A DNA stretch of 63,987 nucleotides, counting the filler, from an uncultured Methanosarcinales archaeon (GTDB lineage Archaea > Nanobdellota > Nanobdellia > Woesearchaeales > UBA12501): the NCBI GenBank assembly GCA_964397315.1. It is 4 parts of 4 records of this genome, joined end to end, with 100 filler letters (N's around TTAATTAATTAA, not from the genome) between each part and the next. Parts side by side here need not be neighbours in the genome. Positions count along the whole stretch, not along the records: positions 20,924 to 40,884 come from CAYNHV010000022.1; positions 40,985 to 60,807 come from CAYNHV010000023.1; 2 more parts are not named here. One strand, given 5' to 3'. This document shows, one piece after another, positions 39,001 through 42,000 of the stretch (position 1 is its first letter; every line of letters begins with the position of its first letter). The position numbers were made by a program.

Positions 39001-42000
39001 CTCGGAAGCGAAGCTGGTGGGACATTCGCTTTGCTCAGTCCCACGAACTGCCTGTAATCTTAAAATAATGACCNNNNNNNNNNNNNNNNNNNNNNNNNNN
39101 NNNNNNNNNNNNNNNNNNNNNNNNNNNNNNNNNNNNNNNNNNNNNNNNNNNNNNNNNNNNNNNNNNNNNNNNNCCAAGGGGATTCGAACCCCTACCGACC
39201 GGGCCGAAACCGGTAGCACTATCCTGGTTATGCTATGGGGCCTTGTGTTTTCGGGTTGTATTTTTTTAGTGGTGCGTACGGTTGAGTGTGGCGAAACCGT
39301 ACCCGCTTTTGCGTGCCAGCTGGGCGTAACCAGCTGTTCTGGTTATGCTATGGGGCCTTTGGTGTTTATAAAACCATCTCTTTTATAAATATAGCCCTAA
39401 GATAAAGCCTCATTCATCTGCAAAGAATCACTCTTCCTTCTTCTTTAATGGGTGCTCTCCCTGGCCGACCCAGATGTAATCATCTTCAGGAGACCTGGGT
39501 TTCCTGTGCCTTGTGATATAATAGTAGGCTCCGAAGCCTATGAGCCCCAGCGCAACCAATACAATTATTACTATCACATAAGGATTCAATATGTCACCCC
39601 AGTTTTTCAGGCAGGATTACTTCCTTCCGAGTGTGATCTCAATAGTGCTTACCCTTACCTGCTTTCCTTCCTTGTTCTCGAACTCTTCTGAGTCAATCTT
39701 TATGTCCTTGGGCTCCACTTTTCCTTCCAGGAATCTCTTTGCAGCAACTTCAGCCACGTCAACGCCCCGGCTTATGAATTTTCCCCTTGCCTTTATCACA
39801 ACACTGTCAGCGTTTTTTGTGGTGAACTGCATCACTACGCCTGTCACATAATTCATGAAAGGCTTGTTCCCTATAAACACAGAGTTGTCTTGTGCCATTC
39901 TTCCACCTCCCTCTGTTCAGCTGTCTATGCCGCCTCTTTCCTCTTCAGCCTCGTAACATATCCCGCTATGATGTTCCTTATCTTTTGCGAAGGGAATTCC
40001 ATGAACTTCTCTGCCAGCTTTTTGTTCTCTTCAAAGTCCTCTGTAAACTCGTCTCCGTGAGCGCCTATGAGCTCCTTCACTTTCCTCTTTACCAGCTTTG
40101 TTTTTATCCTTCCCATAATCCCCCTTGAAATCTGTGTTGGGCCATCCAATAAGGAATTGATTTATAAATCTTTTGGAAAAAGCAGAGCTTTCAGAGGGGG
40201 CATCAGGCCGGCCTGAGCCAGGAATTACTACAGGGGAGGGGTTGAAAACGAAACCTTTATATATTTGTATATTAACTCTGAATCTCATCCTGATTAATTT
40301 GATAATCAATATGGAGGGGCGCGAATATGGCAGGATTTTTTTCAAAAATAAGAGAGAGAATGTCAGGTTCTGATGACTTTGAGATACCCAATGAGATTGA
40401 TGAGGGTTATGTGGAGCTGTCCACAGAGGGTGATGAGGGCTCCCAGTCAAAGATAACAGTCAGGCCTTTTGTGCTTGAGGACTTCGGAGACGTGAAGAAC
40501 GTGCTTGACTCCCTCAGGGAAGGGTATACTGTAGCTCTTGTTAACATAAAGCCTCTCAAGGACAAGGATCTTGTTGAGCTGAAGAGGGCTGTCAGCAAGC
40601 TCAAGAAGACTGCTGACGCTATTGAGGGTGACATTGCAGGATTCGGAGAGGACTGGATATGCCTCTGCCCTTCTTTTGCGCAGATACACAGGGAACAGCA
40701 GAAGAAGAAGGAAGTGCAGGACGTTAATCCCGAAGAGTTCTGATTAGATTATTTATGTTTTTTATGCGCTTTTGATTTTTCTGTCTTAAGTTTATTATCC
40801 TAATAGCTCATGATACTCCCTTTTGGAGAAATGTGTTCCTGCTGGCTTTTCATGGTAATTCCCACCCTTGGGTAGACGATATTTNNNNNNNNNNNNNNNN
40901 NNNNNNNNNNNNNNNNNNNNNNNNNNNNTTAATTAATTAANNNNNNNNNNNNNNNNNNNNNNNNNNNNNNNNNNNNNNNNNNNNTCACGAGGAGAATTTT
41001 TTCGAGGAAATTGAACTTCCCTTAAGCCCGATGTTAGTTGCAATTATTTTCAAGGGCTAAAAATGAGAAGGGGGGACAATTTCAAGAATTACTTTATTGC
41101 TTCAATATCAAATGCTTTCATTTCATCAAAATATATAGTTGGTTTGATCTTAAATTGAGAAAATTTAGATAATATTTGTTTAATTTCTTTTTTAGAAAAA
41201 TAGTGATGAGCCATATGTGGATCATCTTCCATGCCGCCTAAAAAAGTATTTGCTTCAATTTCCTTACCTCTTCCATAACTTGCATCTTTAATTGACATAA
41301 ACTCAGTTACGAGCATGCCTTTAGGTTTAAGAATTCTATATATTTCATCAACTGCTTCTTGATTATCTTTTAATAATCCATGACTTAGAACAAAAATACA
41401 AATTATTGCATCAAAATAATTGTCTGGATAAAAAGTGTGCTTTATATCTGCTACTTTGTAATTAATAGTGCGTAAGCCAATTTTTTCAGCTTTCTTTTTA
41501 GTAATTGATATGCCTGTTTTAGATGCATCTAATGCATAAACTAAAAAGCCTTCTTGAGCAAAGAATAAAGTATTTCTACCAGTCCCAGATCCTAAATCTA
41601 AAATCTTTTTGTATTTATGTTCTCTAAAAATCTGAGCATACTTTTTAATTCGGGGTATTATCTTAGGATACAAATCCCCATGCTTTTTATAAACTATTTC
41701 CCAACCTTCTTCTTTCATATAAAATGTTTAATATTTAAAACATTAATAAATGTTACTAAAATTCTTGAAATGAAATTGTCCCCCTGTTATTGTTGGTTCT
41801 TGATAGTCGCTATTCGCTCTTTTGATAGAACACCCTTGAAAATAACTCTTCGGGATTTTTTGCTTCGCAAAAATCGTTGCACTATCCCTCGGTCACTTCG
41901 TGACGCAACTAACAGCGATTAAAACTCCGCTCACTTGCAGTTCGCTACGCCCTTCGGTTTTGTGGGTTGCCTCAAAACCTACGGGGAAATAAATCCTTCG

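What a model noticed while it worked through the whole genome (the two positions that open the first line are those of the whole stretch)
39224..39367. Hairpin-headed mobile mini-element that is both a tRNA intron and a gene-end insertion with long target duplications
A 65-130 nt non-coding element with a conserved head (6-bp hairpin CARCYG/CRGYTG around the near-invariant loop GTTACGCY, then RCRCGCAA and a variable GC-rich hairpin) occurs 11 times in this genome. Two copies are BHB introns (D-loop of tRNA-Ile(UAU) C2:74155-74364; position 59/60 of the T-loop of the rRNA-spacer tRNA-Ala, intron C8:2773-2877); eight copies are DNA insertions near the ends of tRNA genes or of the SRP54 gene, each flanked by a 19-55 bp direct duplication of the target (gene end plus flank) so that an intact gene copy lies on the element's 3' side; one abuts a tRNA 5' end. 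Orthologous sites in sister species are empty. It is a mobile element caught both as a fresh insertion a [...]
Evidence so far: Copies (nhmmer, call 48): C1:153597-153632(-), C2:74178(+), C4:8913-8951(-), C8:2602(+), C8:2776(+), C9:17311-17348(-), C9:17432-17469(-), C22:11356-11393(-), C22:18373-18411(-), C26:5818(+), C35:8494(+). Flanking direct repeats: C1 36/36 nt, C4 45 nt (3' end of g00400 SRP54), C8 35 nt, C9 55/55 nt, C22 28/28 and 27 nt, C26 19/19 nt; none at the two intronic copies. Head hairpin: 39 distinct copies (9 of G000, 30 of 22 other genomes), 97% of cells paired, 5 of 6 pairs with compensatory changes, 0/500 shuffles reach the covariation score, slid controls 5-38% paired. 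23-mer core in 62 of 301 sampled Woesearchaeales genomes, reversed control 0. In a closed relative (G016) 3 copies are T-loop in [...]
(Added by a program. Inside this text positions count along the whole contig: they may not be those of the stretch shown here. "Call 12" and the like, gene names such as g00115 and contig names such as C1 are that model's own, and its searches are not shown. The text may have been shortened before it was handed on; [...] marks where a part breaks off. The agent that wrote the report below was given it as the finding of a first reader that could run no searches.)

Follow-up and report, generated by a model that had tools for sequence, protein, structure and literature searches.

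The report
Hairpin mini-element invading archaeal tRNA genes
A 55-130-base non-coding, two-hairpin DNA element has spread through the tRNA genes of tiny DPANN archaea, in some places as a spliceable intron and in others as an insertion that duplicates the end of the gene, so it may show how archaeal tRNA introns arrive.

Summary
At window 39224-39367 (minus strand) a 21-nt copy of the 5' end of tRNA-Arg(UCG) is followed by a 28-nt head (a 6-bp hairpin plus a conserved 3' flank), a second hairpin, a 26-nt A-rich spacer and then the intact tRNA. Contigs assembled separately from a second sample carry the same structure.

The same tRNA has a second, variant copy at its T-loop (38913-39073). A third copy lies at 32245-32351.

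The exact 23-mer core occurs in 40 of 401 genomes of the order, with no hit for the reversed control. It gave at least 110 loci in the genome collection, including Nanohaloarchaea. It gave none in viral contigs.

Copies fall into several classes:
- BHB introns in the T-loop, the D-loop or near the anticodon.
- Insertions flanked by direct repeats at gene ends, with the intact gene on the tail side wherever I could place it.
- Copies directly at tRNA ends.
- A module inside about 250-nt composite repeats.

Two comparisons with a relative show one filled and one empty site in each direction. Both place the original flank beside the partial gene copy.

No linked ORF was found. Most carriers checked have no reverse transcriptase, and the Y1 transposase is not required.

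Best reading: a non-autonomous DNA element whose insertions duplicate the target. Its enzyme is unknown. Some copies are spliced as introns.

The parts
39339..39359 (-). DR1: dead partial copy of the tRNA-Arg(UCG) 5' end (2 nt of flank plus positions 1-19, ending in the D-loop), next to the head
   Evidence: exact 21-nt repeat; 33 nt at 85% by the repeat finder
39309..39336 (-). head: 6-bp hairpin around the near-invariant loop, followed by the conserved 3' flank
   Evidence: covariation; folds as a hairpin
39274..39304 (-). second hairpin (8-bp stem); its sequence is unique to this copy
   Evidence: fold; one search finds no relative in G000 or in the loci fetched up to that call
39245..39270 (-). 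A-rich spacer between the second hairpin and DR2; inserted DNA, not target
   Evidence: by analogy with the G401/G000 comparison, where the spacer is absent from the empty site
39224..39244 (-). DR2: the same 21 nt, here the start of the intact tRNA
39174..39242 (-). intact tRNA-Arg(UCG); its last bases are lost in the N gap 39074-39173
   Evidence: Rfam tRNA 40.7 bits; anticodon read
38980..39048 (+). second element at the same tRNA: variant head plus second hairpin, antisense to the tRNA, joined to a partial copy of the tRNA 3' end at the T-loop
   Evidence: nhmmer hit C22:18065-18144, E 1.2e-10
38913..38979 (+). upstream unit of a tandem array: relic second hairpin, 25-nt tRNA trailer and a partial tRNA 3' end (38968-38979). 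The first 55 nt recur at 39019-39073
   Evidence: the repeat finder D1 (64 nt, 95%) and D4
32291..32318 (-). head of a third copy in the window, antisense to an intron-bearing tRNA (32100-32216, +)
32245..32290 (-). second hairpin of the third copy
32324..32351 (-). 28-nt partial copy of the tRNA 3' end plus 4 nt of trailer, on the head side. Its twin at 32194-32221 is the end of the intact tRNA
   Evidence: exact 28-nt repeat

Best explanation
This is a copy of a family of small, non-coding, non-autonomous mobile DNA elements of DPANN archaea.

Anatomy: the core is 55-70 nt. It has a precise 5' end formed by the 28-nt head (hairpin plus conserved 3' flank), then a second hairpin that is conserved in shape but free in sequence. 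A variable tail often follows.

Insertion: elements land in or beside genes, above all in the D-loop and T-arm of tRNA genes. Each insertion comes with a duplication of the target, of variable length. I saw 16 to about 60 nt.

Outcome 1, as in the focal copy: the duplication runs past the end of the gene. An intact gene is then rebuilt on the tail side and a dead fragment is left on the head side.

Outcome 2: the element lies inside a tRNA and its ends can form a bulge-helix-bulge (BHB). The outer helix is a tRNA stem. The central helix pairs the last exon bases with the last intron bases. The inner helix pairs the 5' strand of the head with a 3' module of the intron. The splicing endonuclease can then remove the element, and it persists as an intron.

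Shown here: the anatomy, the repeats, filled and empty sites, the BHB geometry, the orientation rule, and the lack of a linked gene.

Inferred: movement at the DNA level by an enzyme acting in trans that I did not identify; a polar, head-first joining; and selection that keeps only insertions leaving an intact gene or a spliceable one.
For: Family and structure:
- The 23-mer is in 40 of 401 genomes of the order, reversed control 0, and in at least 110 loci of the genome collection.
- The head hairpin covaries. U-G outnumbers C-A 16 to 4 at pair 5-16, which points to folding of the sense strand.
- A stem of 5 bp or more follows the head in 81 of 84 distinct copies, median z -2.3.

Target duplications:
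- 21 of 75 distinct copies and 31 of 126 have significant flanking repeats that end at the head.
- G000 has exact repeats of 19-55 nt.

Filled versus empty sites:
- G000 C2:74366-74455 holds 67 nt plus a 23-nt repeat at the tRNA-Ile 3' end. G401 lacks this.
- G401 holds a canonical-head copy in the D-loop of a tRNA that is empty in G000.
- In both cases the original flank adjoins the partial copy.
- The G376 homologue of the focal tRNA carries neither insertion.

Dual state:
- A BHB plus a restored tRNA was found for 6 of 80 copies scanned, including both G000 introns.
- The same 69-nt core is a T-loop intron in G000 and a repeat-flanked insertion in G376.

Orientation: in every repeat-flanked copy where I could place the gene, the intact gene is on the tail side. 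These are about 20 tRNA sites and 8 protein-gene sites; several were placed by eye only.

Site preference: the sense-strand tRNA cases I noted all join after tRNA position 15-21, in the D-loop. I read this by eye.

Not an artefact: contigs from a second sample carry the focal structure, and the one-contig genome G016 has both classes.

Non-autonomous: among 167 ORFs within 1.5 kb of the head in 30 genomes, no protein cluster is shared by 3 or more loci.
Against: - No enzyme was found.
- Copies in one genome share a nearly identical head but have unrelated second hairpins. The focal copy has no donor anywhere I looked. This does not fit simple recent copy-and-paste.
- The head is conserved far beyond what a selfish end needs, including in records titled Nanohaloarchaea. 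That argues for a function of its own.
- Positions 5-23 and 18-21 of the head covary without a structural explanation.
- No strain-level empty allele of the focal site was seen.
- Two of the four N gaps in G000 touch copies.
- Splicing and transcription were not tested.
Confidence: 0.6

Rival explanations
1. The head and second hairpin form a functional small RNA module, for example a protein-binding or processing signal. It rides on tRNA transcripts as intron, leader or trailer and is kept by selection. Mobility would be secondary or ancient. This can be true together with the main reading.
For: - The head has 16 invariant columns in 79 sequences and occurs in records titled as different DPANN groups.
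- Some copies follow the tRNA 3' end directly and are followed by a T-run (L154, L130, L148).
- The head is one arm of a multi-hairpin composite of about 250 nt, whose terminal stem differs in sequence between copies yet still pairs.
- U-G pairs favour the sense strand.
- There is extra covariation at positions 5-23.
Against: - Many copies are antisense to the adjoining gene.
- Occupancy differs between close relatives, and filled sites carry target duplications.
- No Rfam family matches.
- There are no expression data.
Confidence: 0.2
2. Spread through RNA: an excised intron is ligated or reverse-spliced into other RNAs, copied into cDNA and recombined into the genome.
For: - Intron copies sit in the exposed D, anticodon and T loops.
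- Sense-strand repeat-flanked copies share the junction position of the D-loop introns.
- The duplicated flank is short, like a leader or trailer.
Against: - RVT_1 was not found in G000, nor in G376, G016 (one contig, 100% complete), G056 or G099. Only G120 has it.
- Antisense copies at T-arms and at protein-gene 3' ends cannot come from sense transcripts.
Confidence: 0.1
3. The direct repeats are att sites. The copies are stripped-down remnants of integrase-driven integrative elements that target tRNA genes.
For: - The repeat lengths and the coverage of tRNA ends are typical of such sites; I recall this feature, I did not test it.
- G000 has 4 tyrosine recombinases, one of them beside tRNAs on C2.
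- A Caldiarchaeum model links a recombinase element, a tRNA fragment and intron gain (PMC3293823, abstract read).
Against: - The content is only 55-130 nt.
- No recombinase or any other protein recurs near 30 loci.
- One head is found at more than 25 different targets, including protein-gene starts. Each has its own repeat, so each would need its own attP.
Confidence: 0.07
4. Assembly artefact: strain mixtures or k-mer loops produced the tandem structures.
For: - G000 is a 61-contig MAG.
- Two of its four N gaps touch copies.
- Many copies in other MAGs lie at contig ends.
- One repeat is 55 nt long, which equals a k-mer size common in assemblers (recalled).
Against: - The focal structure appears in contigs from two samples.
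- Partial copies differ from intact ones by point changes and indels.
- The same architecture occurs in dozens of MAGs from different projects and in a one-contig genome.
Confidence: 0.03

Closest known systems
Transposed BHB introns of Thermoproteales tRNA genes (Fujishima et al. 2010, as described in passages of the review PMC4090602 that I read)
   Same: [quoted passage not shown] Gain is taken to happen at the DNA level, and the mechanism is stated to be unknown.
   Different: Here the same core is also found outside the spliced state. It occurs as insertions with long target duplications at tRNA and protein-gene ends, antisense to genes, directly at tRNA ends, and inside larger repeats. 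It also has a 28-nt head conserved in records titled as different DPANN groups. I did not compare sequences with the Thermoproteales introns.
MITEs (miniature inverted-repeat transposable elements)
   Same: Small, non-coding, multi-copy, no transposase of their own, flanked by target duplications.
   Different: There are no terminal inverted repeats. Only one end is conserved. The duplication is long and variable rather than short and fixed. Orientation relative to the nearby gene is strongly biased.
IS1634/IS1549-type insertion sequences with long, variable direct repeats (recalled, not checked in any call)
   Same: Target duplications of tens of bases that differ in length from one insertion to the next.
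   Different: Those are kilobase elements that encode a DDE transposase and have inverted ends. G000 has one repeat pair above 600 nt (839 nt, not examined) and no such gene was looked for.
Caldiarchaeum subterraneum tRNA-Thr locus model (PMC3293823, abstract read)
   Same: A tRNA 5' fragment lies upstream of an intact tRNA, with mobile DNA between them. The model links this to intron gain.
   Different: There the insert is 1.8 kb and encodes a recombinase. Here it is 55-130 nt with no gene.
IS200/IS605-derived hairpin elements (PATEs; recalled)
   Same: Hairpins near the ends, strand-specific behaviour, no inverted ends.
   Different: Those insert without target duplication next to a fixed short target. 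Here the junction sequences vary. A Y1 transposase is present in 17 of 37 carrier genomes and 9 of 37 non-carriers, and is missing from the one-contig carrier G016. The end hairpins of the single G000 IS200 are unlike the head.

Membership tests
Archaeal BHB tRNA intron | Lies inside a tRNA gene, and its removal restores a canonical tRNA | tested here: met
   Met for C2:74175, C8:2774, L002, L042, L050 and L053, that is 6 of 80 copies scanned. It does not apply to the focal copy, which lies upstream of an already intact tRNA.
Archaeal BHB tRNA intron | Helix, 3-nt bulge, 4-bp helix, 3-nt bulge, helix at the exon-intron borders | tested here: met
   Found for the same 6 copies. The inner helix pairs the 5' strand of the head with a 3' module. 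The focal copy has no BHB. Other T-loop copies missed my strict scan, and I judged those only by eye.
Archaeal BHB tRNA intron | Cut by the splicing endonuclease and joined by the RNA ligase | not testable with these tools
   No RNA run holds this DNA.
MITE | Terminal inverted repeats | tested here: not met
   No inverted repeat of 12 nt or more in window 38880-39420. The head and the tail are each self-pairing but do not pair with each other.
MITE | Short target duplication of fixed length | tested here: not met
   The repeats run from 16 to 62 nt.
IS200/IS605-type hairpin element | Insertion without target duplication, dependent on a Y1 transposase | tested here: not met
   Duplications are present. 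Y1_Tnp is absent from the carriers G016 and G376, among others.
Integrative element / att-site remnant | Tyrosine or serine recombinase gene linked to the repeat-bounded DNA | tested here: not met
   No protein cluster recurs within 1.5 kb of the head in 30 genomes. No G000 recombinase lies on C22, C9, C26, C4 or C8.
Retroelement (SINE-like or retrohoming) | A reverse transcriptase in the host genome | tested here: not met
   RVT_1 was found in 0 of G000, G376, G016, G056 and G099, and only in G120. Other RT families were not searched.

The most novel reading that the evidence does not exclude
This element family is the vehicle of BHB-intron gain in DPANN archaea. Every insertion is a DNA event that duplicates the target. 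A duplication that spans the gene end leaves a harmless 'fragment, element, gene' scar. A short duplication inside the T-loop gives an intron at once, because the T-loop sequence TTCGAA is its own reverse complement. Two direct copies of it therefore pair to form the central helix of the BHB, and the head supplies the inner helix. The enzyme would be a polar, head-first inserting activity of a kind not yet described.
Probability: 0.3. Interest if true: 0.9.

Novelty: new variant of a known kind. Interest (0 to 1): 0.78.

Why it matters
How archaeal tRNA introns arrive is an open question. A 2014 review calls the mechanism of intron transposition unknown (PMC4090602, passages read). A 2026 preprint on Asgard tRNA introns concludes that the route of arrival remains open (10.64898/2026.10.13.758758, abstract read).

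In this family one recognisable sequence is seen in several states: before insertion (empty sites), just after it (repeat-flanked sites) and domesticated (spliced introns). That makes the question testable by population metagenomics and RNA sequencing.

The family also adds a mobile-element architecture with one conserved hairpin end, long variable duplications and a strict orientation toward the surviving gene. And it flags a 28-nt motif shared by records titled Woesearchaeota and Nanohaloarchaea, which probably has a binding partner.

My three literature searches listed no title or abstract describing such an element in DPANN. Papers outside the held library were not searched.

Tried and rejected
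- Rfam has no family for the element or for the composite repeats.
- Reverse transcriptase is absent from G000 and from 4 of 5 other carriers checked.
- TnpB-type domain PF07282: none in G000.
- Y1 transposase: only weakly enriched and not required. The G000 copy has unrelated end hairpins.
- Viral contigs: 0 matches to the 23-mer.
- Metagenome contigs: 0 matches to the 19-nt 5' end of the focal tRNA, so I found no strain-level empty allele.
- No RNA holder was listed for this DNA. The laid contigs showed no joined or empty form.
- G401 has no hit to the focal tRNA and has a different neighbour at the syntenic gene. G376 keeps the neighbour gene but not the tRNA there.
- I asked whether a BHB could splice the partial copy to the rest of the gene in repeat-flanked copies. 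None was found apart from minimal 3-bp hits.
- I asked whether the tail supplies a promoter (A-rich box) or a terminator (T-run in the gene's sense), which would explain the orientation rule. It fits some copies (focal copy, C2 3' side, C23, G401) but not most. I judged this by eye and dropped it as a general explanation.
- The class-C pattern in my script was too strict and undercounted that class, so its 'other' bin is not a meaningful class.
- I did not use protein homology, structure or complex tools, because no protein belongs to the feature.
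Full report
WHAT IS THERE

The window is a string of contigs from a 1.47-Mb, 61-contig MAG. C22 begins at window 20924.

On the minus strand the focal region reads as follows:
- a 21-nt copy of the start of a tRNA gene (39359-39339);
- two extra bases;
- a 28-nt head (39336-39309);
- a second hairpin (39304-39274);
- a 26-nt A-rich spacer (39270-39245);
- the same 21 nt again (39244-39224), this time running on into an intact tRNA.

Rfam calls the tRNA at 40.7 bits. I read its anticodon loop as Arg(UCG). The repeat finder reports the duplication as 33 nt at 85% identity and finds no inverted repeat of 12 nt or more. The insert folds into two hairpins with z = -2.9. The N gap at 39074-39173 removes the last bases of the tRNA.

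A SECOND COPY AT THE SAME tRNA

Left of the gap, on the plus strand, lies a copy with a variant head and the family's second hairpin (38980-39048). It is antisense to the tRNA. It is joined to a 12-nt copy of the tRNA's T-loop-to-3' part. A further partial unit precedes it, so that 55-64 nt recur at 38904-38967 and 39010-39073. Because the gap sits where the repeat unit would continue, the array may be distorted.

A third copy in the window (head 32291-32318, minus strand) is antisense to an intron-bearing tRNA at 32100-32216. An exact 28-nt repeat of that tRNA's 3' end flanks it.

IS IT REAL

Logan contigs of two runs carry 39174-39492 without a single difference. One of those runs may be the source of the MAG; the other is a second sample of the same study.

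The exact 23-mer core is in 40 of 401 genomes sampled from the order. The reversed pattern is in none of the listed genomes. Most titles read Candidatus Woesearchaeota. Others read Nanohaloarchaea, Nanohalobium, Nanosalina (a complete genome), Asbonarchaeaceae and ainarchaeum. Viral contigs gave nothing.

In G000 the regex finds 9 canonical heads. A profile finds 21 hits, 12 of them strong.

STRUCTURE

Alignment A1 holds 79 head sequences, 75 of them distinct. L027, from an unpublished genome, was left out.
- 97.8% of cells pair.
- 4 of 6 pairs change on both sides.
- No shuffle out of 500 reaches the observed score.
- Slid controls pair at 2-38%.
- The 5' strand was not constrained by my search pattern, so this is a real test.
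- At pair 5-16, U-G occurs 16 times and C-A 4 times, as expected if the sense strand folds.

A stem of 5 bp or more follows the head in 81 of 84 distinct copies.

One thing is unexplained. Position 5 covaries with position 23 (T-A 59, C-G 13, 3 exceptions). Position 18 covaries with position 21. Both signals are as strong as the hairpin pairs.

CONTEXTS

(a) Introns
- My scan for a helix-bulge-helix-bulge-helix motif, followed by tRNA detection on the spliced product, succeeds for 6 of 80 copies. These include both G000 introns: the D-loop of the tRNA at C2:74155, 97 nt, and position 59/60 of the rRNA-spacer tRNA-Ala, 105 nt.
- In the T-loop cases the outer helix is the T-stem.
- The central helix pairs the exon's TTCG with CGAA at the intron's end.
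- The inner helix pairs the 5' strand of the head with a 3' module of the intron.
- The other copies that follow TTCRA (24 of 126) missed the strict scan, and I judged them only by eye.

(b) Repeat-flanked insertions
- 21 of 75 distinct copies, and 31 of 126 in the larger set, have a significant direct repeat whose upstream copy ends 0-8 nt before the head.
- Targets are tRNA 5' parts (element in sense), tRNA 3' parts (element antisense), and the starts or ends of protein genes. Examples are the SRP54 end in G000 C4 and two genes in the one-contig genome G016.
- None of these copies has a usable BHB.

(c) Copies directly at a tRNA end
- Antisense at the 5' end (C35, L016, L019).
- Sense at the 3' end and followed by a T-run (L154, L130, L148).

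(d) A module in composite repeats
- The head forms one arm of multi-hairpin repeats of about 250 nt, closed by a long terminal stem.
- These were seen in six genomes; the most head copies are in G056 (14) and G120 (8), most of those read being of this kind.

THE ORIENTATION RULE

In every repeat-flanked copy where I could place the gene, the intact gene lies on the tail side and the fragment on the head side. This holds whether the gene runs with or against the element.
- It covers about 20 tRNA sites. Ten of these have Rfam support in other genomes. The rest come; several were placed by eye only (C1, C26, L049, L145).
- It covers 8 protein-gene sites.
- My repeat search is symmetric, so it does not create this bias.
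- L113 is ambiguous. A complete tRNA precedes the head there, but the upstream flank is duplicated too.

The sense-strand tRNA cases I noted all join after tRNA position 15-21. That is the position of the D-loop introns. I read this by eye from the listed calls.

BEFORE AND AFTER

Relative G401 holds loci L194 and L195. It is 88-92% identical to G000 at these RNA genes and about 75-78% identical elsewhere.
- At the 3' end of the tRNA on C2, G000 has 67 extra nt plus a 23-nt repeat. G401 runs straight from the tRNA into the shared flank.
- At a neighbouring tRNA, G401 has a canonical-head copy with a partial 5' copy, a 47-nt spacer and the intact gene. G000 has the undisturbed gene.
- In both cases the original flank adjoins the partial copy, and the spacer is new DNA.
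- The D-loop intron is shared by both genomes, with the second hairpin 96% identical.

The 69-nt core of the G000 tRNA-Ala intron recurs at 89-92% identity as repeat-flanked insertions in the same-genus genome G376. The intron carries about 36 nt more, and these form its 3' module.

For the focal tRNA, G376 has an unoccupied homologue, 84% identical over 64 nt. Synteny is not kept.

SISTER ELEMENTS

I ran a motif-free census of the 21 tRNAs that aragorn finds in G000. Six have a nearby copy of their 3' end (two more flagged rows are neighbouring tRNAs that share a T-arm). The inserts carry the family's second hairpin but other heads: a second hairpin head type, the variant head, or a degenerate head. 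The same type of second hairpin also occurs about 17 times inside non-coding repeats of about 400 nt.

WHAT DRIVES IT

- No protein recurs near the head.
- RVT_1 is absent from G000 and from four of five other carriers checked, including the one-contig, 100%-complete G016.
- Y1 transposase is present in 17 of 37 carriers and 9 of 37 non-carriers, and is absent from G016 and G376.
- G000 has four tyrosine recombinases, none of them beside the copies discussed.
- G000 has one repeat pair above 600 nt (839 nt), which I did not examine.

I therefore read the element as non-autonomous DNA moved in trans by an unidentified activity. That activity joins the head at a site inside the gene and leaves a variable duplication. 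Selection then keeps only insertions that rebuild the gene or can be spliced.

Some facts weigh against a simple copy-and-paste picture. Heads within one genome are nearly identical, while the second hairpins are unrelated. The focal copy has no donor. The head is far more conserved than the rest. The head may therefore also have a function of its own, and this is my main rival reading.

KNOWN RELATIVES

The closest described case is the transposed introns of Thermoproteales. A review calls their mechanism unknown (PMC4090602, passages read). A Caldiarchaeum study proposed intron gain through a 1.8-kb recombinase element that leaves a tRNA fragment (PMC3293823, abstract read). A 2026 preprint on Asgard tRNA introns found no general route of arrival (abstract read).

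The element fails the defining tests for a MITE, an IS200/605 derivative, an att remnant and a retroelement (see the membership table). My three literature searches listed no title or abstract describing such an element in DPANN.

CLAIMS THAT TOUCH UNPUBLISHED GENOMES

L027 (G208) is one of the 75 copies and one of the 21 repeat-flanked copies. Nothing rests on it alone. G375 contributes only to the tally.

Noticed in passing
L015, L018, L021-L024, L054-L057, L059-L072 (genomes G244, G099, G076, G173, G120, G056): The head is one arm of a multi-copy, non-coding unit of about 200-300 nt. The unit has several hairpins and is closed by a long terminal stem, whose sequence differs between copies and genomes yet still pairs. 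It has no Rfam family and no shared ORF. It may be a structured RNA gene or a larger mobile element.
   Followed up: partly
window 25926-26276 (C22:5003-5353) and about 15 other places in G000: Non-coding repeats of about 340-430 nt at 80-90% identity. They contain a hairpin of the same type as the element's second hairpin (window about 26179-26203). One copy lies beside the tRNA cluster on C2.
   Followed up: partly
G000 C6:24289-24393, C23:13654-13746, C35:8330-8491 (3' side), C1:154620-154735, C2:74366-74455: Further insertions with 16-49-nt duplications at tRNA 3' ends. They lack the canonical head and carry a second hairpin head type, the variant head or a degenerate head. On C1 two such events are nested.
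   Followed up: partly
alignment A1, head positions 5/23 and 18/21: Covariation as strong as in the hairpin itself (T-A 59, C-G 13, 3 exceptions for 5/23). It does not fit the hairpin or any fold I tried.
   Followed up: partly
L154, L130, L148, L166 (records titled Nanosalina, uncultured archaeon, Nanohalobium, Nanohalarchaeota): The head starts directly after the acceptor stem of a tRNA and is followed by a short hairpin. A T-run follows that hairpin in L154, L130 and L148; for L166 the printed stretch ends before any T-run could be seen. Here the element looks like a tRNA 3' trailer with a terminator.
   Followed up: no
G000 C2:~72983-73032 versus L195: The G000 tRNA has a 50-nt intron beside the anticodon that the G401 orthologue lacks. 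Both share a T-loop intron without the head.
   Followed up: no
L031 1-480 and L038-L041 (G376): Arrays of repeats of about 120 nt, rich in TTGTTG runs with an internal hairpin. Copies of the element sit inside them, flanked by repeats of about 21-31 nt.
   Followed up: no
head 5' half versus tRNA D-arm: The 5' strand of the head and the start of its loop resemble the D-loop and 3' D-stem of tRNA genes. In the variant-head copies (C1, C8:2602) the partial tRNA copy runs through the whole D-arm and takes the place of the head's 5' strand. This may hint at a tRNA origin or at joining helped by homology.
   Followed up: no
G000 C2:75006-76600: A 467-aa tyrosine recombinase gene lies directly downstream of an intron-bearing tRNA, 0.6 kb from the tRNA that carries two element copies. 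It is probably an ordinary integrated element.
   Followed up: no
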